A stretch of DNA of 63,099 nucleotides, filler included, from Kipferlia bialata (lineage: Eukaryota): NCBI GenBank assembly GCA_003568945.1. It is 4 parts of 4 records of this genome, joined end to end, with 100 filler letters (N's around TTAATTAATTAA, not from the genome) between each part and the next. Parts side by side here need not be neighbours in the genome. Positions count along the whole stretch, not along the records: positions 1 to 22,644 come from BDIP01000286.1; 3 more parts are not named here. One strand, given 5' to 3'. Under the pieces are notes generated by a model, which searched no databases, was not told where the DNA came from, and was given only the letters and a program-made list of their open reading frames with translations. Every line of letters begins with the position of its first letter. The stretch's first letter is position 1. The position numbers and the translations under genes were made by a program. Positions 1 to 45,205 of the stretch are shown one piece after another.

Positions 1-181
1 GAGTATGTATTCCTATATGCCACACTGGTGACCCGGAGGGTCACGCCGCACTAGTTGTGTAAACAAAGATTCTTCACATCCAAATATTCAACGGCATTCT
101 TCCAACCCGAGTATGTCATTTCTAGCATTGGTTACATCATACATATGTATAGGTATGCACATCATTCTTTCAACCCTCCAG

Positions 182-2406
182 GCGTTGTGATCAAGCTGTG
201 CTCTGTGGCCGATGTATACATCACTTATATACAACAATATATTGCATTAATATTTCTTTTGTAGACCCATATCATTCTGTCAACCCTAGGTGTAGTTATC
301 AAGCTGTGCTCTGTGGCCGATGTCTCAACAATATACCACCATCACTTCCTTATCTTTTAATAATGTGTGTATCTATCTATATCTAACTTCCAGGTGTAGT
401 TATCAAGCTGTGCTCTGTGGCCGATGGATGCACACCCCTGCACATCACAGCCGCAAAGGCCATCATGAACAGGTAACATATACCACAGTCATATACTTGT
501 CAGTATTCAAGTTCATAAGGAACTATTAGTTTCGCAACGCCCCTTATCCCCCCTCCGACTCACCCCCAGGGACCGTGACTCTAGATATGCCTTCAACCTG
601 GCCTTCTGGGACTACATTGGAAGGTATTGATTAGATGCTTGATAATATCCTACATATATTTCAAATCTATAAGCTATATGCATTCTGGGACTACATTGGA
701 AGGTGGGGTGGATACATGTTTCATGTATTGAAGACATTCGAAATTTTCCTGTATATACCCGCTGACCCCAGGATAGCCTCTGAGTCTGGCAGGAACATCA
801 GCAACACGCATACATACTATAAATACATGATATTATTAGTCATGATATACATGTTCTATTCTTTCTTACACTAGGATAGCCTCAGAGTCTGGCAGGAGCA
901 TCAGCAACACATATACATAAATACACATTAGAATACCATTATATTCAATCATGTACTATAGGATATCTGACTGTAGGATAGCCTCTGAGTCTGGCAGGAG
1001 CATTAGCAACACGGCCATCCTACTCGCACACCTGCTGGGACCAGGCAACAAGGGTATGTCATAGATAATACTTGGGGTGGTCCTTGGAGACCAATTTATA
1101 CTCTTCCCAATCGAGGTTTAGTCAATCTGTATATACCCAAGTATACGTCTGACACTCAGGCTCTGGTATCTCCTGGGGCGTTGTCAAGAAGGCACTGGGC
1201 CTCGGAGGGAAGGCACAGGTGAGGACAAGCGTAACATACCTTCCACACTCTATTCTCCGTCTTCCCCTCTCTATTCCTATCAGTAAATATTGTATGTACT
1301 GTCAGGTACTCACCCCAGGTCTGGTTTGACATTGTCCTCCTCACTCTGTTCACCGATATGTATATCTCTCTATGTATACATATTTATAGATTGATTGATA
1401 GATTTCTTCTACTCAACTAATTGATAGGTCTGGTTTGACATCGTCCTCCTGACCTTGTCCACCGATGTGACGTGCAATGGAGTAGATAGGGGTGCATGGG
1501 TGCAGCTCCTACAGCCCATCAAGGCGGTGGGGCACGAGCAGCTCATGAGGTATCACATGTAGTACAATTACATATATATGTATATATGTGTATACATATG
1601 AATATCAATATACTAAGAGGATACTATAGTGGTCTATCAAGGCGGTGGGGCACGAGCAGCTCATGAGGTATTGTATATATATATAACTAGTTGACCTCTA
1701 CAAATATTCACATATTCAACGAACACTATGGTCCGTGTTGCCTTGAAAACTCTGGCCCATATTCGTTAATAACCACACAAGTGTAACATATTTGGCATTC
1801 GTACAAATGCATGTGCACCCCCTCTGACCCCCAGAGAGTATGCCGAGATGACAGGCCATGGCAATGTGCCACTCGTCACAAGGTATGTATTGTAGTAGTC
1901 GATATCTATCTGAGTACCTGCACTATCTCTCTCCCTATATGCAAATTTGTATGAGCTCCTACAACAACATCATTTCTCATATGGTCTATATACACATCAT
2001 CTTATCCACTAGGATGGCCTCTGTGCTGCAGTCCCTGGTCAAGAGACTCAGGAGGAGGGACAGACAGGTGGGTACATGTATATTTGTACATATATACTAT
2101 ATGTGTATAATATATACTATGTATGTATGTATTGGTCGAGAGACTCAGGAGGAGGGACAGACAGGTATATATACATACATATATACTTGAGTTGTTTTCT
2201 AGGCCCTGCTCTGGCTTACCATAGCTGGCACTCTACGGATGCGTATGTATTACTATATATCTCCTATCCTTAACTAACCCCAGGCCCTGCTGTGTCTGAC
2301 CATAGCTCTCTCTCTCCCGTACTCTCTCTCTCTTTCTCTCTCTGTATAGCAGTGAAGTAATGTATCCTTACCCCAGGCCCTGCTGTGTCTCACTATTGCT
2401 GGCACT
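182..2406 (+). repeat. Intronic partial copies of adjacent exon ends (exon echoes) in the NOM1-like gene
   Basis: Exon-start copies at 182, 290, 772, 875, 1319, 2203, 2284 and 2377; exon-end copies at 680-702, 1636-1667 and 2133-2164. Confidence 0.95.
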
Positions 2407-2561
2407 CTACTTATATATATATACTATTGTATATCACCTCTCGTTCCTTACTCCAGGCCCTTCTCTGTCTCACTATTGCTGGCACCGACAGGGACAGAGC
2501 CATGGCCAGATTGACAGAGGTCAGGGAGGAGTGTCTAAGGCTAGGCAGGAAGGAGGAGTAG
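394..2561 (+). CDS. 3' part of an MA3-domain protein, most like NOM1/Sgd1 (nucleolar MIF4G/MA3 protein); 5' end lies outside the window
   Basis: Exons 394-472, 570-623, 977-1053, 1160-1218, 1428-1549, 1835-1882, 2013-2067, 2457-2561 splice in phase to VVIKLCSVADGCTPLHITAAKAIMNRDRDSRYAFNLAFWDYIGRIASESGRSISNTAILLAHLLGPGNKGSGISWGVV...ALLCLTIAGTDRDRAMARLTEVREECLRLGRKEE*. The F..(S/A).WD....SN...L.AHLL pattern and C-terminal position recall the NOM1 MA3 domain; CWC22 is the alternative. Confidence 0.6.
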
Positions 2562-3027
2562 AGAGACAGAGAGAGGGGAGAGGGTGAGACTCTGCTGGGA
2601 TGATGACTGGAGAGCTGGAGATTTCCAGGGTAGTATTCGATATGGGCCGTAATAGATCGTAGCCATGTTGGAATAGCGGGTGGAGACTTGTGGTAGTTGA
2701 TAGGGTTCCTCTAATATTCTCGATTGGGCATCAATATGATTCCGTCAGAGGGACGCATCCAATCTGATAACTCACTCTGGGAACAACGGTATATTACATA
2801 TTACTAAGACTCCTGGGAGTACATTGCCCATGACCACTTCCCAACACAAATTCAATAATATTGAATCAATATATTCTCAATGAGAATTTCTCATTCCAAT
2901 TTCATATTCCTTCTCAACACTCTCTCGTCAGAGGTGAGATAACACAGCAACGTACTCTCTGTAGTTGTTACTCACACACACTGTAAAGTCTGGCATCGTG
3001 ACCGATTCACACACTATATACACAAGT

Positions 3028-6017
3028 TCAGATGTCGACAGAGACCAAAGCGTTGTCCACTTGCCCCTCTAGTTCCCCTAGCCATCCCTCCAGTGTCTCC
3101 ACCACCTTGGTGATGTCTGCACCCACCCTCTGGGTCATGGGTTGGGTGATACGGACCTGGGAGTCAATAGTGCATAGTATATACACATGAGGATAATGAA
3201 TATATCTCTGGGTCACGGGCTGGGTATTCTGTACCCGGGGTCAATAGTGTATGGGATATATATATATACTACAATATATATACATATGCCCCCACCCTCT
3301 GGGTCATGGGCTGGGTGACACGGACCAAGAGGTCAGTGTTGTATATCACCTTGTTGGATATGTATACCATATAGGTGTGAGTATATGTATGTATAAATGG
3401 GTCATGGGCAGGGTGATACGGACCTGGGGGTAGGTATCGGAGATATACCTACAGACTGACAGGTGGTATGGTAGGTAGATGTATATACATAGGGAGATAC
3501 TAGTTATTGACTAAGAGATGTGCCCACCTGTCTCAGTAGGGGTAGAAGGTCAGTGTGGGAGGCAAGTGCCGGCACTCCTGCACCCTCAAAGCAGTATGCT
3601 AGACCCTCAATGTGCCACAGGGCGGAAGCGACATCAATGGGCACACTCATCATGTTTAGCATGTTGGGTGGTCCTCCTGGGTGTTAATAGTAACCACTGT
3701 ACATATATAGTATATATAGTATATACATATCTACTATTACCTATGGAATACTCAGTATACTGAATCATACCATACATTGGAAGGTATCATAATGGATATA
3801 TATCAATTAATTATTAATATGAATGGTATCCTATTAGGTAGTTGAGTTAAAGATTAGTAAACATATATCATCTCATATACTATATATCAGTTACATATAC
3901 ATATATACATATACCTGTCCCAGGCCGACCCTGTCTAAGAAGTGCATGTTGGCTGAAAGATACTTGATATATCATGTATAGGATGGATATATCATGTATA
4001 CGTATGGATATATATATATATATATATATACCTGGCTCAACCTGAGGCTCAGGCAGAGTGTCCAAGTGGTGCATGTTGGCGGAGATGTATAGGTAAATAT
4101 ACATATATATGTATAGTATAGATATATGTCAGTATAGTCTATACCTGTCCGTGGCTGACTGGCCCTGTCCAGGTGGTGCATTATGGCTGAGATATATGCA
4201 CTCAGTGCATCAAGGGAGGTATCAATGAGCAGGAGGGGGAAGACACTCCTGGAGGTGAGTGATACATATATATATATATATATATAATCATATGTACTTA
4301 GTATACGGGGAGAGGCATATGTAGAGGCATCAGTGAGCAGGAGACGGAAGACACTCCAAAAAGTATGAGAGTAGGTACTCAAAATTGTCAGAGATGTATG
4401 CTTTGGTGTGGGTAAAGTAGTGTTGTATATTCACTACATAGCAATGAGAGACGTTGGGTATATGTACCTACATGTGCCGCTTCAACCACTCCCACTTCTT
4501 CCATTTACCGTATATATATCGAATTGATATACAATATACTACTATACATACCTGTACCGCATCAGGTGGATCAGGGCCACGAAATTTTCTCTCGGGAAGT
4601 TGTTAGAGAGAAGACCTTGGTTGACCTTTGTCTGGTGTAACGAATATACGTATACGTATATAAGCATATATGTGGGGTGTGTATGATTCACTTTAGAACC
4701 CACCATAATGTCCTCTGTGACATCTGTCATCATCTGCATATTCATACATGTATACATACACTATATATTTCTTTGTATATGTTGTAGTTCTCACCATAAT
4801 GTCCTCTGTGACCTCGGTCATGACAGCCACCCTCTCTTGGTGGGAGAGAGAGAGAGGGGACTCACACACATGGGGGTCGAAGAGCCTAGGTCATTAGAGA
4901 GGTACATTATATGAGAGATATGTAACCAGAATTATCATACTATGTAATAGAGAGTAAGTAGTAACACATGTACTCACACACATGGGGGTCGAAGAGCCAG
5001 GTCATTAGTGGGGTATTGTACTAATACATATACTAATGGAGTCTGTATGTGGCGAGGAGGGGGGTGGGGTAATAGTATGAAACAGTATATGACGTGTGCT
5101 CTATGTATGTCGATAGGTATACATAATAGTGTATGACGTATGTCTACTCACCTGGTGCTAATCTCCATACTCTCACATGCAAGATGGGTGAAGAAGAGAA
5201 CCGAGTCAACCTCAGAACGGAGGTCGTTGCTATTACCACCAACAGCCTCAATTGTGCCAATACTCTGTGACATGTTCTCCAGGAGAGGCCTAACTGAGTG
5301 GTAGAAGCTATCGAATGAGCCCTCCATCATGGGACTGAAGACAGAGGAGACTTCACTGGGGTAAGATACAATGGTATATGCATATACATATATATCCTAT
5401 ATAGTGATAAGCACAATACATCACGGGGCTGAAGACGGAGGAGACATCGCTGGGGTGAGACTAAGTACACAGAGTGCAAAGAATAGTATAAATATATACC
5501 TTTACAATTCTCATATATTCCCCCTTTACAAGACACATACACACGTTGTAATTGAAGAAAGGATTGGGTTTGTACACCAGTATATACCTCGGCCACTGGC
5601 ACATACTCTCTATGAACCCAGCTGCAGCCAGTCTCTCTCTCTGAATCTGCTCCTGACCTCCATCAGATGCACTGTCCCAGTCTGGTATCAGTATCAGTAG
5701 TGCAATACACTATAATACTACCATGCTGATACTGATACTGATGCTAATACTGCTCCTGACATATATCAGTTACACTGTCCCAGTCTGGCATTAGCATGTA
5801 TAGCATGTGTATATATATGGAGGGAGTAATGGTGTTATATATCCTCAGCTTCACATAAAATCATCTCTATTAACATCTATGCACCTTGGATATATACATA
5901 GGAAGTAAATATGTATACATTAACATGTATGTAAATATGGGTATATATGTATGCCATACATTGTATGGTGTGTATACCTACACTCATCTTGGCCAGGATG
6001 GAGAGGAGCCACATGTG
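3028..6017 (-). CDS. Multi-exon protein of unknown function, probably alpha-helical; start not found
   Basis: In-phase GT-AG exons include 6017-5978 (HMWLLSILAKMSV), ~5682-5588 (DWDSASDGGQEQIQRERLAAAGFIESMCQWP), ~5355-5152, a short exon at ~4885, ~4732-4692, ~4631-4552, ~4247-4146, ~3675-3527 and 3156-3028 (VRITQPMTQRVGADITKVVETLEGWLGELEGQVDNALVSVDI*). No family recognised. Confidence 0.7.
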
Positions 6018-6080
6018 CTGGAGGGTTAGGAAGGGGGGGGGGGGGGGGGGGTTTTTTTAAAAAAATCAAAGGGGGGGGGG

Positions 6081-6116
<36 letters not shown>

Positions 6117-6161
6117 GGGGGATACTAATCTGTGCATATATAAAGATATGAGAGTCCCCAC

Positions 6162-7544
6162 CTGCTTCTGTGCCACTGGGGCCACTCCGTTCTTGGCAAT
6201 CTGGCCAATCATGAGCTCGTCCAGGATCCTGGGGGTGAGGCAACTGTATAGAGACCAGCACACTGTATTAAAATATCTCTGTACCTGTCGACCTCTGCCC
6301 CTGCGATCTCCTCCTCGTCCTCCACCCCCAGGGCATCGTCCATGGTCTCATTCACCATCTCCTGGGGGTGAGGGGGAGGATGAAACATATCACTAGAGGA
6401 TGCGGGGATAGCACATATATATCAGTAAAGAGAGTTGTGCTCAGTTTGTATTTTGATGATACATGAAAGGGAAGGCGATACAGTAGCAGAGACACCCACA
6501 CAATGCACGTACCTCCATGAGCCCTGCCTTTGCCATCTGCTTGGACATGTCTCTCATGGTGTCTCTGAGCTCTGGCACACTGACCAGCTGGTTCATGGCC
6601 TCCATGATAGGGACGGTGTTGGACATGACGCCAGACACCCTGGGGTTAAGGGGGGGAGAATGGAAGGGTAGGAAGGGTGGGTAGAATAGGAGACCTGAAT
6701 GGAGGGGGGTGGGGGGTACGATACAACAACACTATAAAGGCTAGACTATTCTGGAGGGAAATGTACCATAAACAATTAATAGGATGAAAATGGGTAATGA
6801 GAAGTGGAAATATGTATCATCCTAGTATGTAGCAATACGTGTAGGCATCGTATACGGTACAATGACAGCAACGCCGGGATGTAAGAGATACCACCAGCCC
6901 ACACAAAACAGTATACGGCAGTGTGGCATACGATAGAAAGAAGAGTACAATTACAGAGACATTATGACCTGACCCTACCAACATATGACATGAATAGAAA
7001 TGTCCACACTGTGAGAGCAGAGCAGATCAAATACATTCACATCTTACCAACTGACACTACAAGAACAACTAAACACAAATATGCTAGACACCAACACCCA
7101 GGGTGATGTGTATATATATAGACATCAAGCATACACGATAGAGGGTGGAGACTCCCCATACACATACACTACCCGTCCTATCCCACCTGATGACTGCCAT
7201 ATTGGCCTTGATTCCGTTCTGGGCACACTTCAGGTTTGCCTTGGCCTCAATCAGCCTCTCGCAGGTGTGTCTGGCCCTCACAATCTCCTTGGCAATTATC
7301 TTCATACACACTGGATCGTTGTACTTCACGTACATCTGCATCTCACGGGCAGCCTTGGTCTCCTCTCTCCGGATCTGGGACACCTGGGTGAGAAATAAGG
7401 ACCACAGGCCGCAATACAGACCGAAATAACGGTAATCAGTACCTGCCGGTCGATATACCGCATTTCGGAGTTCATGTCCTTCATAGCCTGCTCAGCTGCG
7501 GCAGCAGCCTGCTCTGGCGTAATCTGAGAGGATCCGGCTCCCAT
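6162..7544 (-). CDS. VPS24: ESCRT-III subunit Vps24/CHMP3 (Snf7 family); terminal exon not found
   Basis: Exons 7544-7443, 7383-7187, 6639-6513, 6361-6285, 6228-6162 give MGAGSSQ...IIAKEIVRAR...AKANL...MEAMNQLVSVPELRDTMRDMSKQMAKAGLMEEMVNETMDD...EVDRILDEL. This matches the CHMP3 signature (MQSLVKIPEIQATMRELSKEMMKAGIIEEM). Confidence 0.9.
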
Positions 7545-8088
7545 TCTTGCTGCTTAAACAGGACTCAGGGTTAGAAAGAGGTCCAGCCTTCGATTCCCAA
7601 CCTGACCAAAAGTATCAACCCTTGTCCCTCTGGATCGTGTAGGGCCTACACTGTAGGCATGCTGGTACACAGACACCCTATGGCAGTAGCAGAGGCCAAT
7701 ACCGTGTTTCTACAGAGTAATGCTTATGCGTCAACATCCCCAGACGGATGGATACCACTTAAATAAGAGACATAGCAATTATATCCGACAGATGGAGTGA
7801 TGGGTATACGGTCTATTCAACAACCGAAACACAACTGATGCCCAATGGCATCAATTCAGACAAAAGGCACACAAAACACTTCAATGAGACTCGGACAGCA
7901 CAGAAATCCAACCATATAGGGGTAAACATCGCACTGGGACAGCGCAAGGCAACACTCCCATGAGCCACCCCAATACTCCAAAGAGGAAGGGACGACACCC
8001 ATTGGAATGGGAGGGTGGGGGGGGGGGGGGGGGGGGGGTGGGGCCCCCCCCCCCCCCCCCCCCCCCCCCGCCTTCCCTTACCCTCCAG

Positions 8089-35505: not shown

Positions 35506-36380
35506 GTGAGTGTGTTTGTGGGTCACACATGGTGTATATCATTATTTCCATCCCCGCAACCCAACCTTACCCTGTGGCATATTCCGTGTGTCTGTCTGCC
35601 ATACCCTCACCTATAGGATTTCTATTATCTTGACCATGTCCCACTAACACTCAGTCTTCCCCCCTGTGGCCTCTGCCCTGGGTGTATCCCCCACACCCCT
35701 AGAGGCAGAGGTAGTGGATGTCAACGGCACGGTGGGAATGATGGTCAAGAGAAGGGATATAGTAGTGCAGTCACAGTGCCCCCAATGACCTTGGGGAAAG
35801 ATATGAAAGAGTGTAGGTGGATGTATACATACATATACATAGAGTGATTGACACCGTGGACAATTGTTAGGGGGATGCCCCCAATGACCTTGGGGGTCAG
35901 TGGCTATAGTAGTGCATGTGGTCAATGGCACAGTGGGCATCATGTCATGATGGTCAAGGGAAGGGACGCACTGCAGTAGAGTGGGAATGACGTTCTTTAC
36001 ACCATGCAGGTCTTGTCTTCAGATGAGATACGGAGAGACAACGTGGCCGGCAAACGCATAACGAGAAATCTCTTTGTGACCCTCTTTCTTCACCGGAATA
36101 GATACACTCAATCGAAGGGAAGCACACTCTTGGTGGCAAGGGAACGTTCACACTGTAACAGTGCCACTCGATTACTGTCGATCAAGGAGTATATATGATA
36201 AGAATCAGAGTCTATGCTCAATCGTGTCTATTCCAGCATTGGTACTGTGAGGACCTCCCTTCCACATGGGAGTTCCATGTGGTTGCTGTCTGCAGCCAGT
36301 ATCTCCATGACGACACATTCCACCACACCCTATGCACCATACTATACACTGTACACTCCACACTCCCGCTGTGTCACCCC

Positions 36381-38353
36381 TCAGCATGGCACCGAGAGTG
36401 CCTCCCCAGGCTGGATGTCCCGCATGGCACGGAACGACTAGGGTGGGTGTGGTATCTGTGCTACACATGTATTATGAATCGATGCACTTGTGTATGTCAT
36501 TGCACGGAAGGACTAGGATTGGACAGAGATAGGCATGTGGGTTCAAAAGATAGCTCTAGTGGAGTAAAAACACCAAGGGTCCATTAGAATAGGCACAATA
36601 GGTAAGGTACTCAAATAGATCGATAGAGGGAAGCTGTGTATCTGACATCCACCCACCATCAGCCCAGTCTCTCCCTCCCAGTAGCAGTACAGAGTGGGGT
36701 CCTTCCTCACCCTTCTGCACAGGTGAGTCACAACAGGATATAATATAGTGACTAAGTATATAAACCAATCACAGTAATGATAATGGGACAACAGAAATGT
36801 ATCCATATTGCCTCGATATATGTTGTCTATTATCCAGACTGGGTCCTATTTCTGACTATCAGCCTGACTAATAGGTAGCATACACACACATACATATATA
36901 TAAATAGCTATATGTATGTCAACCACCTGAACCATGCTGCCATGAGACAGAAGCAGGACTCGTCGTCACAGGAGTAGGACTGGGGTTAGATAGTATGTAA
37001 CAGACAATGTAATACGCATTTGCATACACCATATGTATTATCAACGCCAGTAGACAGTATGATATGAACAGGAATATACTCATTAACATACACTATATAT
37101 TGTGTCAATGTCAGTAGTGGTTCTGGGGTCAAGGGAGATAGTGGCAACTGCAGTGGCAAAGCATAGCAGAATGAGCTAATGGTAGAAGGCTTCAATGTAG
37201 ATTACATGTAGTCCCCAATCCACATACAACATGAGTACATCTATACAAGAGTAGTAGAGAATATGCATAAACCAATGAATACACCGGAATACAATGTGCA
37301 CTGTATGCTCTCAGCCTCACACTCACGTCACGTGAGTTATACTGTTTGCCAACTCGTTGCCTACGCCTTGCACATTGGGTTTCTGAACTATAGTAAAACA
37401 TTATAGTAAATAGTTATAGTAAATATCCTCACATTTCTTCCCAGCATGTTGAGAATGCCCTTAACACTGGGCTCTTTCCCGTTATCCCTCTTGTAGATGT
37501 CCCACTCCTGCTTGCTGGGGTTAATAAGCCTAATAAAGGGGTAACGATTGAACCTAATGAGGGAAGAGGAATTCATTAGGGGTTATATCTGAATTATTAG
37601 GGGGGCATAATGGAGAACAGAGCTAGAGAGAGAGAGCAGGGAGGGGGGGAGAGACAAGGTGTGTTATTTTGTGTATACACCCACTGCTATGCCATTCCAC
37701 CCACCTGAGGCTGGATAGGTGGCCATATATACACACACACATATATATTCATACATAACCAACTATTATAATATATATGTACAAATATAATGTATCCTCT
37801 GTGACTCCCACCTGAGGCTGGACAGTAAGGGGTTTGGGGTGGGGGGGGGGGTAGGAGTCCTGTTTCACTGGAAAGAGTCCCTTGCTACATTATCCAACCC
37901 ACCTCAGCACAATGTTTCCCTTCTTGATGGCCTCCTGGTATTAGTATCAGTGTAAGTATTTGTATATATATATTCCATATTCTACATGGTACCTTGGCAT
38001 ACACCCCCCAGGCACTGTCAGTCTGATCAAGACGGACAGGCACTGGGTGAGATGGGCATAGAGTATATATATATATAATTAAGAAGGGAATCCTGTCGGT
38101 GCATACATGCACTCATATACCACTCATATATATATATATAAATATGACAAGGTGAGGGTGGGGACACACATGCTAAGGGACAGCTTGGCAGTTCAGAGAC
38201 ACAGTCTTACTGCACACACATATCAATGAGCACACCTGACAACACTATGGACCAGTTACCACCCACACACCCATGTTATCACATGACACCTGTACTGTCC
38301 TAACCTAGGTCTGTGGCTGTACCGACGGGTAGCCAGTGGGACGGGTATGCCAT
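36381..38353 (-). CDS. Small stand-alone SET-domain-fold protein (~130 aa) with a degenerate catalytic motif
   Basis: Exons 38353-38305, 38042-37993, 37934-37903, (optional 6-nt microexon), 37514-37433, 36979-36927, 36714-36657, 36437-36381 all splice in phase to MAYPSHWLPVGTATDLVPVRLDQTDSAWGVYAKEAIKKGNIVLS(LS)KQEWDIYKRDNGKEPSVKGILNMLGRNSYSCDDESCFCLMAAWFRRVRKDPTLYCYWEGETGLMSFRAMRDIQPGEALSVPC*. SET motifs WGVYAKEAIKKG and RAMRDIQPGEAL are present. Confidence 0.8.
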
Positions 38354-38854
38354 TGTACACAGTGCTGTGGAGAGTGTGAGACACGATTCACTCGAGTGAA
38401 CCCTTGGAGAGTTTTAAACGGTTCACTGCTAGACTGTTCATTGCTAGATCACTAGACCCTTTTCTCATCCCGTGGCTACTCTTGTCACAAGAGCTATTTT
38501 TACAGTTACAGCTCTTACACCATTTGCAGTCGAGAACTGAGGTAGATCTATCACAGTCTAGTCTTACAACACATCAGACTTGAATGATAGAGCCAATGTC
38601 ACACAATGATTTATATTCACACCACACTTGCACCCAACATGAGGGCACATACTCAACTGGTTAATTCTTGCTATTCTGACACACTATTCTGACACACACT
38701 GACTCTCCCTCTCCCTCTCTCTCAAAGAGACACACACACTCATTGAGTCTCTCTCTTACAGAGCTGACAGTGAATGTGAGTGTTTCGGTAACCTGAAACA
38801 TGACTTCTCTCTCCCTCTCTCTCCCTCTCTCTCTTCATGTCTCTCTCCCTCCAC

Positions 38855-41800
38855 CTATATAGTGAATGTGAAGTCCGTTGCTATCTGGAAGAGCCTGTCC
38901 CCGTATAGGAAGGAGGAGTTGACGAATTGGACACCGGGGACAAGGGGGAGGGGGATGCCGCCAATGACCTACTGATTAGTGTCAAAATATAGTAGGTCAT
39001 ACATGTAACAAGTGTTGTCAGGCTGGAGCCCAGAGGAAATAGGGGGACATATGTCTATACACCCATCTGTATATATACATGTATGTACATGCATTCCCAC
39101 CTCGAACAGGTCGTTCCAGAGAGGGATGATGACATACTCAAAGAGTACATCAATCACATCCCCTAGGCCTGACAGATCTATGCTGTCTGTGATGGTGTAG
39201 ACAGTGTCAAGGTCCATGTCCTAAAGTGGGTGGCATGTATATACTCAGTATACTATACTGACATATCAATATATGTATGGTGTATATACATTTACTATAT
39301 ATGTGTTCATGATGTAGACAGTGTCCAGGTCCATGTCCTGGGTATAAGTGGATACTTATATACAAATATGAATACTCTTTCACTGAATATTGTATACTGT
39401 ATCCTATATAGACTAGGCAAATAATTGTGTTGTGTTTTATATACTACAAATACTACATGTCAATGTGTAGACAGCATCCAGTTACATGTTCTTATGAGGA
39501 GTACTCGTGTTGCACACATTACACACTGTATACTCTATACTTGCATATCCATGATACAATATATATTGTGATATTCAATTGAATACACCAACCTCAAACT
39601 CAAACACGGCTGATATGAACACATCAGTGCTGTTTGACATCAGGAGGGGCTCCATAGAGAGCGCTGGGGTCAGATACATGGATACATATAGGTATATGTC
39701 AAGGGAGAGAAAGAGGTACAGGGTAGTGGCTGTTTGACATCAGGAGGGGCTCCATGGACAGGGCTGGGGTGAGGCATATATATGTGGATAGTACTATAGG
39801 GAGAGATAGAGATACTGCTTGAGGGCTCCATAGACAGGCCAAGAGAGAGTGATCTCCACAGAGTCAAGGATAGAGATATAGAGAGATACATAGAGAGAGA
39901 TACAAAGGGGGCATGTACCTTGGTGGAGATCGAAGATGGCAGAGTAGAAACATGGAGAGATATGTAGAGGAAGGGAATGTGGGATGTACATACCCAGGTG
40001 GAGGTCAAGGTCAAAAATGTCTGTCTGATACCTGGGGTGAGAGTGGTGTGTGTGTACTATTCTATTTCCGTCTGGCGAACAACGCGGCCCCATACCGCAT
40101 ATACATGGTATTATGGGAAACAGAGGAGTAATCCATGTACCAACTCTACAGAGTTTTATACCCATACCCGTCACATGCTATGGCTGATATGGTTGCATCT
40201 GCAGCGAGGTGCATTCCATCACTGTCGGAGAAGGACACAGTGGGGTACTCACTCGGCTCAAGCTGGGGTCATGTAACAACATGTATCATAACAAACATGC
40301 AACATGTATACACTCTATATCACTATACTATAGTCACTTGATGCTGATATCCGTACCTGCATGTAGAACTCCATGTCCTGGTCGGGGAAGATGTCCCTCA
40401 GGCCTGGCAGTAAGACGAATATACACATTGATGTATACCACGTGACAGTAAAAGACGAAGAGCTACATAATATAGCCTATAATACTATAGGGGCGTGCGT
40501 CCATACAACATGCATATATATGCCATGCAGCATACACTGTACCTGGCATGAACACAGCCAGTGACCGGATGGTCAGGGGCCACCACTTCTCCTGGGGGTG
40601 AGAGATACCGGAGTGAGAGAGTAGCAGTAGTTGATATATGGGTAGACAGGGTCAAATATACGACCTGGCGGCACTACTCCAGAAATAGAGTGTTTTATCA
40701 AAGACTAGCGCTATCTGATTACATATTTCGATTTAGTATGTTACCGACAGTATATATATACGGGTTACGTACGAAGTCTGCCTCGACATCTGCACTCTTG
40801 TGAATGCATACACATATGAGTACATAATATATACTATGTATACAAATGTATATACATTACACGTACGAAGTCTGCCCCGACGTCTGCGTTGGTGATGTTG
40901 AACCCAAGGACACCTGGGTATGAGGGAGAGTCAGAGTCAGAGTCAGCCAAGTGACATCAGGATACTTGTGCATATGAAAGAGAGGGAGAGATTGAGATAC
41001 AGAGAGACGTGCAAACTCTATTCCACCGAGAAATAGAGTGTCTCTCCTATGAAGAGGGGTATAGATACCCATCTACCTCTCTGCATGGAGATCATCCTAT
41101 ATATATATATATATGTATATATACTATATGTATACTACAATACACACTTGTACCTCTGTCTGTGGACAGTGCCAGTAGGGAGTTGGGCACATCCTCTGTG
41201 ATCACAAGCTGGGGGTTAGTAGGCAGTGCATTGGAAGCATAGAAGTATTTTGAGTATAGGTTCACCAGTCATAGGATAGGCCTGACGTAAAGAACTCACC
41301 TGAAATGATGTGACTTCCCCATCCGAAAGCGATACACATGCATATGTGTAGACAGCGAGTATGTATGTATATCACACCTGCAATGATGTGAAATCCCCGT
41401 CTGACAGTGTGTGTGGCACTATGGTCAGGGGATATACCCAGGAGGGATCGTCATACTGGCCGAACTGGCCCTGGGCATAGAGCGACAGGGAGTCTGGGGT
41501 GAGACAGAAGGAGAACATACAATCAGAAACACAATACATTGAACACATATGTATGAACACGTGTGTATTGTGGCCCTGGGCATAGTCTATGCTGCATAGA
41601 GCGACAGGGAGTCTGGGGTGGGAGAGGGGGGAAGAGAAATGAATAGAGTCCGGCGTGACCAGTAAGAGCTTTCTATCAATGACAGTACATATTGCAGTGT
41701 ATGTAACAGAATGCACCTGCTGTGACGACTGGGTCCCCTGTGAGGTAGAGGAAGATGTACTCCTCAGAGTCAATGGGGGCTACCTGGGGTAAGGGAGAAG

Positions 41801-44759
41801 GAGAGAGAGGGTCTAGGTACCTATTGTTCCCAGTGTGTAATAAGAGATACACATGTGTATATGCATACACTCCATAACCATTGTAGCCAGCGTGTCCTGG
41901 GATATATATACATTTATCTTCATAAGTCTCTTCAATATATATATATATATATGCCTACCCACCATGACCATTGTAGCCAGTGTGTCCTCTGATATGTCCA
42001 GAATGGCATCGGGGAGGGAGTCTTCGATGGAGTCCTGATGTCAGATATGTATGTATTCAATGGAATACAGAAATATATGGAATGAAATGCTGGGAGGAGA
42101 GGTATGGATGAAGAGTGTAGAGAGACAGAAAGAGAACTGTACATGATTCCATCGGGGAGGAAGCCCTCGATAGAGTAGCTATACGAGTAGTACACTCCTC
42201 GACAGAGTCGTTGATAGTCTACAGGCGCACAGATGTGAGTGTGTGTGTATATGTAGTATATGTAAGATATACATAATGTGTCTGCATCCCTACCTCGATT
42301 GAGTCCTTGATGGTACCCTCGCATGCATCTATCACTAGGTCATACAGCCAGCTGACAATGGAACCATGCATGTCGACGTCTGGGTGAGACGTGTACAGTA
42401 CAATAGATGAGATATATGTATTAGTACAATATGCTTCTATGGACCAACACATACCGACACCTGTGAGTGGGACGGAGAGAGCGGCGAATACTCTATATCA
42501 CGGTTAGTTATACAGAACACTTGCAAAACTTGTATAAGCAGAGTATGTAATATACAAGAGTATGTGTCAATGAATCAATACATGTCGACATCTGATGAAA
42601 GATTATGATACTAGCTCATACTAGCATTCGATGTGTAGATACTACACGGTGGCCCCACCTATGTTACCGACATCGGCATGAACATAGGGCACGTCCAGAT
42701 ACAGCTGGGGTGAGAGACAGTGAGTTCTCTACTATATAATATATACAATGCACTAGTATTACAAGAAAAACTGTATATATGTATATAAAACTGTATATAT
42801 GTATATAGATACACTCTAATACACCCACGCAAAGACACCTCTATATACAGCTGGGGTCATGTATACTTGGTGAGGGAGCTGTCTCGGCGTCTCCGAGTAG
42901 TATACACTGTATAGAGTGGAACCGCCAGTAGTGAGAAAGAACTCAGTCCGCTTACCTCACTCGAGTGGTCATGGAGACCAATCGTAACCATAGTGGTCAT
43001 TCATAGTTATGTATATATATGTGCATCTATACACATCGTACATGTTACTAGCTATACTATAAGAATGTATGGCTCTGTACCTCCCCCGAGTGATCATGGA
43101 GACCAATGGTGAGGCCGATTGCCACATCCTTGACCTTGAGGTCGGCGGATCTGACACGGTAAGGAGTTAACATATATGCTATGAAAAGCCCTATTTATAA
43201 TACATAATACTTATAATCCAATACATAAACATAATTATGCGGTCGTTGCTCAGTTATCCGTTAGTGGAATATATCCATTCAATGTATACCATAACGGTGA
43301 TTAGGCATGTACTTCATGTTCGACATATCGATACATATATACACACGGATTAATAGATATACAATGATGTATATCATGCGCATCTATACATATCATACCC
43401 GTGGTCTGACATGTACTTCATGCTCCATGCCCAGTCCATAGAGCCCTGGAAGGTGAGAGAGAGGGAGATAGGGTGAGGGATATATATATATATATATATA
43501 ATGTGAGAGAGGGATAGAGAGCGAGTCTGGCCCATAGAGCCCTGGTATGTGATATAGGGAGAGAAAGAGGGGGGGGGAGTTACAGAGGAAGTGATGACCA
43601 TACCTTCATTGTGAACCCTGAGATGTTGACACTGACACCTGGAATGTGAGAGGTGGATAGATCGAGAGGTCGATAGAGAGAGAGAGAGACAGAGAGGTGT
43701 TGACACTGACACCTGGAAGGTGAGATTAATTCACACAGGCAATGTGCATATATTCATGATATATACCATACGAAAACAGAAGTATGGATGATACTATATC
43801 ATACGCATATGTGCATATATATTGATACACGTACCCGTCTCACTGAACGATATTGCAAAGTGCCCCCAGTCTGTGACATTGATGTGGATGGAGGTGAGGT
43901 CAATGTCCACATGGCCTGGGGTCAGGGTGGGGTACACACACATATATTTATATATATAGATCAGTGTATGTGAATATATATATATATATATTTATATATA
44001 TATGTTAATATATGGTATGTGGATGGAGGTGAGGTAAATGTCCACGTGGCCTGTGTTAGCGTATACTAATACATGTCTCTACACTGATATATATTAACAT
44101 GTGAGAGAGAGAGGGGGGGGAGAAGGTGAGGTCAAGGTCCACATGGCATGGGGTCAGTGAACATGGATATATACATATCCATTCATGTATATACATATCT
44201 CAATACATTGGGGAGAGAAAGAAAGAGTAATGCAGAGGTCAATGTCCACATGGCATGGGGTCAGTGGAGAGTTTAGAGAGAGAATACATACAGTGGAGAG
44301 AGAGGGACATGTGGGAAAGAACGGGTGATAAACGGCCGGAGGAACATATGGAGAGAAGCAGACAGAGACGGGGGGAGAGAGAGAGAAGAAGGGAGGTAGA
44401 ACACGTGCATACTTGCCTTGGATGCAAGGTGGGGAACATAAGGAGGGATGCAGACAAAGAGAGACAGAATGAAGGAGAGCCTAAGGGTCCATGTCTATAC
44501 TGTCTAGGGTCCATGTATTGTGAAGTATCGTTACCTATGGGTGTGTCGACATGTGCCTCGTGGATGTCAGTGACAATACATTATATGTATGTATATATAT
44601 ATATATATACAATAATATATAGTCTCTCTACCTATGGGTGTGTCGACGTGTTTCTCGTGGATGTCAGGCACGGTGATGGAGGTGAAGGCCTTCTCAAGCC
44701 TAAGAAGATGAGTGAGAGATTAGAAGAGAGAGCAGAGAGACATAGAGAGAGAAATAGAG

Positions 44760-44795
<36 letters not shown>

Positions 44796-45205
44796 GTGAA
44801 GGCCTACTCAAACCTGAGGGTATAGAGAGAGAGAGAGAGAGAGAGATAGGGAGAGATTAAGAGACCGGAGTAAGAGAGAGTGAGAGAGAGTGAGAGAGAG
44901 TACTGACCCACATTGTCACTACTACCATCAGTATGGACGAAATTGAAATTGACACAAGTGTCACATTTCTCTTTTGATCCACACGCCATTGTATACAGAC
45001 ATAGAGTATTGGATCTTACATTATCTCAGAGAGAGAGAGAGAGAGAGAGAGAGACCACTCACACTGGGAGGAATGTGGCCTCGATATTCTCGATGGCTGC
45101 TATGTTGAGCGAGGTCAGGAAGCCACTGGGGGCCACGCTGCCCAGTGCGCCACACACATAGAGCAAGAGGGAAAGGACCAGGAGGGTGCATGCAGAGGAT
45201 GGCAT
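38855..45205 (-). CDS. BPI/LBP/CETP-family secreted protein, copy 2 (about 19-20 exons, echo-rich introns)
   Basis: Signal MPSSACTLLVLSLLLYVCGALG. Family-like segments ITVPDIHEKHVDTPIGHVDIDLTSIHI, GSMDWAWSMKYMSDHGSADLKV, DVDMHGSIVSWLYDLVID and QLVITEDVPNS. C-terminus IIPLWNDLFEVIGGIPLPLVPGVQFVNSSFLYGDRLFQIATDFTFTI* is typical of BPI/LBP. Confidence 0.88.
39310..44815 (-). repeat. Intronic exon echoes in BPI/LBP copy 2
   Basis: About 20 partial copies, e.g. at ~39310, 39463, 39729, 39818, 39916, 40765, 41298, 41593, 41868, 42142, 42953, 43290, 43525, 43693, 44019, 44125, 44235, 44533 and 44789. Confidence 0.92.

What the first reader, a model, noticed from the sequence alone, without database searches (positions are those of the whole stretch)
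1319..2490. Echo copies differ from the functional exon almost only at synonymous codon positions
Seen: the real exon at 2457 reads GCC CTT CTC TGT CTC ACT ATT GCT. Echoes read GCC CTG CTG TGT CTG ACC ATA GCT (2284), GCC CTG CTG TGT CTC ACT ATT GCT (2377) and GCC CTG CTC TGG CTT ACC ATA GCT (2203). Echo 1319 vs exon 1428 has 4 synonymous and 1 non-synonymous change; 182 vs 394 has 3 and 0. A hand tally over this gene gives about 24 synonymous vs 4 non-synonymous (copies not independent). A neutrally decaying duplicate should show more non-synonymous than synonymous differences. Inference: the echoes were captured from diverged functional alleles or paralogs (a fossil record of recombination, hybridisation or cryptic sex), or they are still translated.
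Basis: partly seen in the sequence, partly recalled or inferred. Interest (0 to 1): 0.85.

Follow-up and report, generated by a model that had tools for sequence, protein, structure and literature searches.

The report
Introns stacked from other alleles' junctions
In clusters of genes of the free-living protist Kipferlia bialata, most introns carry dead ~30-base copies of the neighbouring exon ends that differ from the exon mainly at silent codon positions and have nearly unrelated intron flanks, likely pieces of other, diverged working copies of the gene pasted in by recombination, which would make these introns a fossil record of genetic exchange.

Summary
Confirmed and extended. The window is Kipferlia bialata. 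In three modelled genes, 24 of 33 introns hold 15-42-nt copies of the adjacent exon end with its splice site (41 echoes, spaced ~100 nt); the other ~48 kb show none. In the stretch laid (1-3600), echoes lie in single DNA contigs at even depth and RNA-run contigs splice over them: not a mis-assembly, not translated. Observed 0.24 (95% 0.14-0.40): 0.09 in its gene, 0.31 (0.18-0.55) in the two others, no excess in one of them. A second test agrees: similarity stops at the splice site; only 3 of 39 intron flanks resemble the exon's own, where plain duplicates would give 65-100%. Best reading (0.55): junction pieces captured from diverged functional alleles by recombination, then decaying. No donor allele was found, so the source is inferred. 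The scan noted junction duplications in other genomes (urchin, annelid); those notes mention no synonymous bias.

The parts
394..2561 (+). Gene A, 3' part: exons 394-472, 570-623, 977-1053, 1160-1218, 1428-1549, 1835-1882, 2013-2067, 2457-2561. Same protein as KIPB_001894 apart from its first 13 residues; likely the C-terminal part of a MIF4G/MA3 (NOM1/Sgd1-like) protein, a name I infer
   Evidence: Open frame and GT-AG sites; 7 of 7 introns seen as joints in RNA-run contigs; Dysnectes homologue of 580 aa, 31% identity, weak MIF4G hit E 0.017
182..213 (+). Acceptor echo of exon 394 (CAG; 3 synonymous differences)
290..322 (+). Acceptor echo of exon 394 (TAG; 33 of 33 identical, yet intron flank unrelated)
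680..702 (+). Donor echo of exon ending 623; followed by a complete 69-nt GT..AG intron and echo 772
772..808 (+). Acceptor echo of exon 977 (1 S, 1 N)
875..910 (+). Acceptor echo of exon 977 (2 S)
1319..1357 (+). Acceptor echo of exon 1428 (4 S, 1 N)
1636..1667 (+). Donor echo of exon ending 1549 (identical core, intron flank unrelated beyond 4 nt)
2133..2164 (+). Donor echo of exon ending 2067 (1 N); followed by a complete 38-nt GT..AG intron and echo 2203
2203..2231 (+). Acceptor echo a of exon 2457 (4 S, 1 N)
2284..2307 (+). Acceptor echo b of exon 2457 (5 S)
2377..2405 (+). Acceptor echo c of exon 2457 (2 S)
3028..6017 (-). Gene B (8 exons modelled, function not found) with 10 echoes whose upper ends lie at 5784, 5448, 4997, 4732, 4356, 4090, 3962, 3423, 3325, 3225
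   Evidence: Open frame; echoes; last intron seen as an RNA-run joint
38855..45205 (-). Gene C, LBP/BPI/CETP-family protein KIPB_001904 (20 exons, 488 aa) with 20 echoes whose upper ends lie at 44813, 44574, 44254, 44147, 44050, 43712, 43323, 42987, 42591, 42218, 42176, 41907, 41848, 41612, 41331, 40793, 39837, 39763, 39489, 39337
   Evidence: My model equals the database protein; Pfam PF01273 and PF02886; echoes

Best explanation
Each echo is a dead, spliced-out copy of an exon end that likely came, with its own version of the intron, from a different working allele of the same gene, likely pasted in when a break was repaired from a diverged homologous chromosome. Shown: echoes abut the splice site, reach at most 42 nt into the exon without a gap whatever its length, carry their own branch-point/AG or GT, add about one intron length each, and are skipped in RNA-run contigs. 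Inferred: alleles had conserved exons but nearly unalignable introns (about 0.16 extra substitutions per fourfold site before capture). Inferred mechanism: a broken end pairs in one exon, copies the donor's intron and about 30 nt of the next exon, and is then end-joined to the rest of the resident intron instead of annealing to the exon; once one echo exists, out-of-register exchange between echo and exon of different haplotypes would add more. After capture the echo decays neutrally. Events that form a usable mini-exon would be purged.
For: d0/d4 = 0.24 (56/809 zerofold vs 49/195 fourfold differences; bootstrap over 29 exon ends 0.14-0.40). Duplication-and-decay simulations through the same detection rule gave means 0.52-0.60 and 0 of 600 runs at or below 0.24; a diverged-donor simulation gave d0 0.064, d4 0.26, ratio 0.25. 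Same-haplotype gene conversion gave 0.58-0.74, minimum 0.36 in 100 runs. Base-matched test: 49 fourfold differences against 26 expected. Intron flanks: 3 of 39 score above 95% of unrelated introns; ungapped identity 13-60 nt from the site is 0.22-0.39 against 0.27-0.33 background; simulated duplicates at d 0.12-0.28 are detected in 65-100%. Four fully identical echoes (290, 4997, 44254, 41612) and the identical-core echo 1636 also lack a significantly matching flank. Sibling spacers are weakly related (3 of 15 pairs above the 95th percentile, P 0.018), as expected of old versions of one intron. Four versions of exon 2457 show all four combinations at two silent sites. K. bialata has Spo11, Dmc1 and polymerase theta entries and no Ku70 entry (PMC8516963 supplement rows); fornicates lack Rad51A.
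Against: No donor was found: DNA contigs show no other letters on the laid stretch and the second sample matches the exons it covers; no paralog among proteins; no relative in metagenome contigs. The count-based test gives only P 0.02 overall and 0.08-0.14 for B+C once shared differences are collapsed. Changes private to one echo (19 S: 19 N) exceed one-sided decay but not the two-branch bound (P 0.37). Amino-acid differences are not conservative. XPF and Msh3, which normally trim such flaps, are present. The 42-nt cap and the regional clustering are not explained.
Confidence: 0.55

Rival explanations
1. Plain tandem duplications of about 100 nt across a splice junction on the same chromosome, followed by neutral decay. 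The live exon supplies synonymous changes, slippage in the TA/GA-rich introns erases the intron part quickly, and gene A is a selected extreme.
For: Even spacing, median 102 nt; differences shared by all echoes of an exon are 7 S: 1 N, i.e. changes in the exon; B+C counts of 54: 58 are near this null; gene B fits it; weak likeness of sibling spacers; amino-acid differences and stops look neutral.
Against: Predicts d0/d4 of 0.5 or more: 0 of 600 simulations reach 0.24, and gene A is 0.09. Predicts intron flanks about 86% identical (twice d0): 3 of 39 are detectable, none among the five echoes with identical cores. Introns would have to change many times faster than dead exon copies a few bases away.
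Confidence: 0.2
2. Same capture process, but the donors were paralogs or homeologs (segmental duplicates or an old hybrid genome) that have since been lost, so no exchange between cells in a living population is needed.
For: Gives the same d0/d4 and flank pattern; echoes are regional, in neighbouring genes at 1-5800 and about 36400-44900 only, as a duplicated segment would give.
Against: No paralog is left. Exon 2457 needs up to four distinct versions, which means several donors for a gene that looks single-copy.
Confidence: 0.13
3. Echoes are still used: as alternative exon ends that are translated, or as splicing decoys kept by selection.
For: 18 of 27 acceptor echoes keep CAG/TAG and 10 of 27 score at least as well as the real acceptor; unspliced contigs cover introns 4-7 of gene A in the RNA run.
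Against: All 8 GT-AG joints in RNA-run contigs use the real sites. 25 of 27 echo acceptors give a frameshift or stop and the other two lack AG. 3 stop codons against 2.1 expected, mean BLOSUM as random. The unspliced cover includes echo-free intron 6 (depth 66), while echo-rich intron 2 has depth 0-4. Contigs drop rare isoforms, so minor use is not excluded.
Confidence: 0.04
4. Assembly artefact: haplotypes or strains concatenated by the assembler.
For: Fragmented short-read assembly of this species (PMC5874029 passages); echo regions lie at scaffold ends.
Against: One 1151-nt DNA contig (397-1547, depth 420, no differences) spans echoes 680, 772, 875 and 1319 with their exons; neighbouring contigs have depth 412-438; a 445-nt contig of another run spans 2133-2405 and the start of exon 2457; no other letters are listed. 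These runs may be of the sample behind the window, so they test the assembly, not the strain.
Confidence: 0.03

Closest known systems
Minisatellites whose unit spans an exon-intron boundary, e.g. human F7 IVS7 37-bp VNTR (PMC1557585, abstract seen)
   Same: Copies of an exon end with its splice site lie in the intron, and the authentic site is used (first donor; here also the last acceptor).
   Different: F7 pseudo-sites are identical in sequence. Here the intron parts are nearly unrelated, exon parts differ mostly at silent sites, and 29 exon ends in three genes are affected.
Tandem genomic duplication / internal gene duplication as a source of intron sequence (PMC3443670 passages; Gao and Lynch 2009 recalled, not read)
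   Same: Duplicated exonic sequence ends up spliced out; the protein is unchanged; introns grow by about 92 nt per echo.
   Different: No new intron is made. A same-chromosome duplicate should keep its intron flank and show d0/d4 of 0.5 or more; neither holds.
Intron transfer between gene copies, and intron gain during break repair (PMC3443670 passages)
   Same: Intron sequence moves between homologous copies by recombination or repair.
   Different: Here the incoming intron is likely added to the resident one rather than replacing an empty site, and leaves an exon fragment of about 30 nt at the seam.
Tetrahymena 90-bp-exon LRR arrays grown by unequal crossing over (PMC6564038 passages)
   Same: Exon-plus-intron units in tandem, clustered in certain regions.
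   Different: Those are whole translated exons of repeat proteins; these are partial, untranslated copies in non-repetitive genes.

Membership tests
Junction-spanning minisatellite / plain tandem duplication | Unit contains an exon end and its splice site, in tandem orientation | tested here: met
   39 of 41 echoes are anchored at the exon end without gaps; the other two have an indel before the GT
Junction-spanning minisatellite / plain tandem duplication | Intron part of the unit is as alike as the neutral sites of the exon part | tested here: not met
   3 of 39 flanks detectable against 65-100% expected; sibling spacers only weakly alike
Junction-spanning minisatellite / plain tandem duplication | Copy-versus-exon d0/d4 of 0.5 or more | tested here: not met
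   0.24 (0.14-0.40) overall; inconclusive for B+C alone, 0.31 (0.18-0.55)
Junction-spanning minisatellite / plain tandem duplication | Authentic site is used, copies are silent | tested here: met
   8 of 8 GT-AG joints in RNA-run contigs; rare isoforms cannot be seen
Alternative or mutually exclusive duplicated exons | Copy is a whole exon with both splice sites, frame-compatible and found in transcripts | tested here: not met
   0 of 27 acceptor echoes end at a strong donor; 25 of 27 give a frameshift or stop; none in RNA joints
Introner or transposon insertion with target-site duplication | Inserted spacers form a repeat family | tested here: not met
   Non-sibling spacers score 0.02 per base on average in 427 pairs; tested within the window only
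Capture from a diverged allele or paralog (intron transfer, conversion with end-joining) | Signature of selection on both copies before capture | tested here: met
   d4 minus 2 x d0 = 0.16; similarity ends at the splice site; strong in A, moderate in C, absent in B
Capture from a diverged allele or paralog (intron transfer, conversion with end-joining) | A donor exists as a full exon with the echo's variants and intron | tested here: inconclusive
   None in 4 runs of at most 2 samples, nor in protein or metagenome searches; no other isolates were available
Capture from a diverged allele or paralog (intron transfer, conversion with end-joining) | Microhomology or templated filler at the distal seam | not testable with these tools
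   Needs the two parental sequences

The most novel reading that the evidence does not exclude
Kipferlia, a fornicate with Dmc1 but no Rad51A or Ku, recombines alleles so diverged that only their exons pair, and failed resolution stacks the alleles' introns one after another. A single genome's introns would then archive several extinct or unsampled haplotypes, giving direct evidence of outcrossing and a new route of intron growth.
Probability: 0.4. Interest if true: 0.82.

Novelty: new variant of a known kind. Interest (0 to 1): 0.64.

Why it matters
Whether free-living metamonads exchange genes is hard to test, since few isolates exist. If echoes are captured alleles, one genome yields allele divergence (about 0.16 per fourfold site), the number of donor haplotypes and a map of where exchange happened, from data already public. 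It would also show how a cell without classical end-joining or Rad51A repairs breaks from diverged templates, and explain part of this species' intron length. Even under the plain-duplication rival, introns that skip up to three strong acceptors spaced about 100 nt apart are a natural test of splice-site choice in a reduced spliceosome (87 of 174 proteins searched, PMC6679479 passages).

Tried and rejected
No whole genome is held, so the genome-wide test was not possible. No RNA holder is listed on record; the RNA status of runs X2-X4 is the tool's guess. Reads were laid only on 1-3600, so gene C and most of gene B have no read check; DNA pieces for 1666-3600 were not among those listed. Pfam found nothing for P0001 or three single exons; no solved-structure match for the Dysnectes homologue; the protein atlas gave no answer. 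Metagenome scan with P0001: 213 pattern matches, none confirmed. Rejected: cDNA origin (echoes carry branch point and AG, not the upstream exon); spacers as whole introns beginning at a donor (0 of 27 strong donors at the seam against 8% background); C-hypermutability or AT bias as cause (zerofold rates per base 4-9%; simulation 0.53); same-haplotype conversion. The base-stratified figure (127 expected, 56 seen) is not used, because conditioning on the exon base inflates it. Loss of AG in 8 of 27 echoes (P 0.02) is not relied on, as two cases are probably one event. One of 42 segments (41585, second half of a split echo, no differences) was dropped before all counts; 2 of 41 echoes without an ungapped anchor were left out of the flank test.

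Full report
Source and gene models. Exon 1428-1547 matches a Kipferlia bialata protein, KIPB_001894, at 100%, on a contig of 22,644 nt, which is the length of the window's first piece. The window joins four scaffolds with N-linkers; no whole genome is held. I modelled three genes by coordinates: A (+, 394-2561), B (-, 6017-3028) and C (-, 45205-38855). All are open with GT-AG introns. C equals database protein KIPB_001904, an LBP/BPI family member. A equals KIPB_001894 apart from its first 13 residues; its only homologue found is a 580-aa Dysnectes protein with a weak MIF4G hit, so I read it as a conserved NOM1/Sgd1-like gene (name from my own knowledge).

The observation. The quoted codons and counts are right. 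A scan blind to codon position (ungapped, +1/-1, score 12 or more) found 42 segments, 41 echoes after merging one split copy: 11 in A, 10 in B, 20 in C; 27 copy an exon start into the upstream intron and 14 copy an exon end into the downstream intron. They are 15-42 nt long, median 30, unrelated to exon length, spaced 57-212 nt, median 102. 24 of 33 complete introns have at least one, and each adds about 92 nt. Spacers (median 69 nt) are about the modal intron size elsewhere in the window (rough model-free estimate). In the 4 introns with both kinds, donor echoes lie 5' of acceptor echoes. A model-free scan gave 80 hits in 0-6 kb, 32 in 36-46 kb and none elsewhere.

Real DNA, spliced out. On 1-3600, one DNA contig of 1151 nt at depth 420 spans four echoes and their exons without a difference; neighbours have depth 412-438; a 445-nt contig of a second run spans echoes 2133-2405 and the start of exon 2457; no other letters are listed. 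So this is one haplotype, not a second allele at half depth. These runs may be of the sample behind the window. Contigs of the presumed RNA runs join exactly the 7 modelled introns of A and the last intron of B, none at an echo. Using an echo acceptor would give a frameshift or stop in 25 of 27 cases; the other two lack AG. Echo-versus-exon amino-acid differences (57, plus 3 stops, in 380 codons) are as random as neutral change (BLOSUM -0.47 against -0.52; 2.1 stops expected). The echoes are dead.

The right null. After a duplication the exon keeps gaining synonymous changes while the copy decays at all sites, so the expected ratio of zerofold to fourfold divergence is about 0.5, not 1. Gene A: 23 S: 8 N, or 15-17: 5-8 after collapsing shared differences; B+C: 54: 58. 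On counts, the excess over this null is P 0.02 overall and 0.08-0.14 for B+C (collapsed). On site classes: identity is 0.91, 0.94 and 0.80 at codon positions 1, 2 and 3; d0 0.073, d4 0.306, ratio 0.24 with a bootstrap over 29 exon ends of 0.14-0.40; A 0.09 (0.02-0.26); B+C 0.31 (0.18-0.55). Simulated duplication and decay gave 0.52-0.60 and never 0.24 in 600 runs, which treat echoes as independent; same-haplotype conversion gave 0.58-0.74 in 100 runs. A base-matched test gives 49 fourfold differences against 26 expected: A 17 against 3.7, C 25 against 15.7, B 7 against 6.2. The excess is firm in A, moderate in C and absent in B; A was chosen for it.

A second test. A tandem duplicate of 100 nt should carry the intron as well. 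Beyond 12 nt from the splice site, echo flanks are about as like the exon's own intron as unrelated introns are, and 3 of 39 pass the 95th percentile, whereas simulated copies at d 0.12-0.28 with indels pass in 65-100%. This holds in all three genes and for echoes with identical exon parts. Yet the flanks are proper splice signals: 18 of 27 end in CAG/TAG, 16 of 27 have a branch-like motif, 10 of 27 score at least as well as the real acceptor. Positions 7-12 are somewhat alike (0.47-0.49 against 0.29-0.32) and sibling spacers are weakly related. Likeness is confined to what protein selection conserves, as between diverged working copies of a gene.

Mechanism (inferred). A donor about 0.16 substitutions per fourfold site away, followed by decay of about 0.06, reproduces d0, d4 and their ratio (its parameters were chosen from the data, so this shows consistency only). 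Stretches 680-808 and 2133-2231 read as exon end, complete intron, next exon start: a whole foreign junction set inside the resident intron. I propose repair from a diverged homologue that pairs only in exons, copies the donor intron plus about 30 nt, and is end-joined to the resident intron; later out-of-register exchange between echo and exon would lengthen arrays and explain sibling echoes that end at nearly the same place (772/875, 2203/2377). Exon 2457 and its three echoes show all four combinations at two silent sites, which needs recombination or a repeated mutation. K. bialata has entries for Spo11, Dmc1, polymerase theta, XPF and Msh3 and none for Ku70 (PMC8516963 supplement rows); fornicates lack Rad51A (passages); Dmc1 stabilises mismatched joints in other species (PMC6719624 abstract; listing). 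This makes the route plausible and does not show it.

What is missing. No donor was found in four runs from at most two samples, in protein searches or in metagenome contigs. Alleles cannot be told from lost paralogs. Very fast slippage in these TA-rich introns could weaken the flank test, though not the ratio in A. The 42-nt cap and the clustering in two regions remain unexplained.

Literature. Nine searches listed no paper on such echoes in Kipferlia or on synonymous-biased exon-end copies in introns; I saw listings only for most hits, and the library lacks most subscription papers. The genome paper (PMC5874029, passages and the overview section) counts 124,912 introns and did not mention them in what I read; its supplements were not opened. 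The closest known things are junction-spanning minisatellites (F7 IVS7), tandem genomic duplication and intron transfer. Earlier notes of this scan report junction duplications in an urchin and an annelid gene (unchecked); they gave me the F7 lead.

Verdict. A real, regional, recurrent structure whose two signatures are hard to get from ordinary duplication. New variant of a known kind; interest 0.64; 0.82 if the allele-capture reading holds.

Noticed in passing
window 1-393: RNA-run contigs continue 5' of 391 with an exon that is not in the window, so the annotated first exon of KIPB_001894 is likely wrong and the gene is cut by the scaffold end; its Dysnectes homologue is 580 aa.
   Followed up: partly
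window 1-55: Piece of a high-copy repeat inside the first intron: several contigs overlap it and the summed depth is 33,537 in the first bin.
   Followed up: no
window 1191-2483: Unspliced contigs of the presumed RNA run cover introns 4-7 of gene A at depth 53-90 against 73-106 for spliced joints, while introns 1-3 are near 0. Could be intron retention or antisense read-through from convergent gene B (depth 1777); contigs give no strand.
   Followed up: partly
window 35780-37830: Further echo-like pairs in small genes beside gene C: 36446/36521 and 37718/37825 and, by eye, about 35783/35877. The echo region is thus about 10 kb and spans several genes.
   Followed up: no
window 6020-7545: Gene B's model runs up to a long G/C homopolymer tract next to a Snf7/ESCRT-III-like gene (name from my reading of the translation, not tested) that has no echoes; a scaffold misjoin here is possible.
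   Followed up: no
window 4060-4035 and about 39975-39950, minus strand: Two donor echoes differ from their exon ends by in-frame indels (+6 nt in gene B intron 6; -6 nt in gene C intron 17, below the scan threshold), read by eye; a third is out of frame (-4 nt).
   Followed up: no
genes A-C: Acceptors have a branch-like motif about 10 nt before the AG (consensus from 34 sites), close to the fused branch point and 3' site described for diplomonads (PMC6679479 passages).
   Followed up: partly
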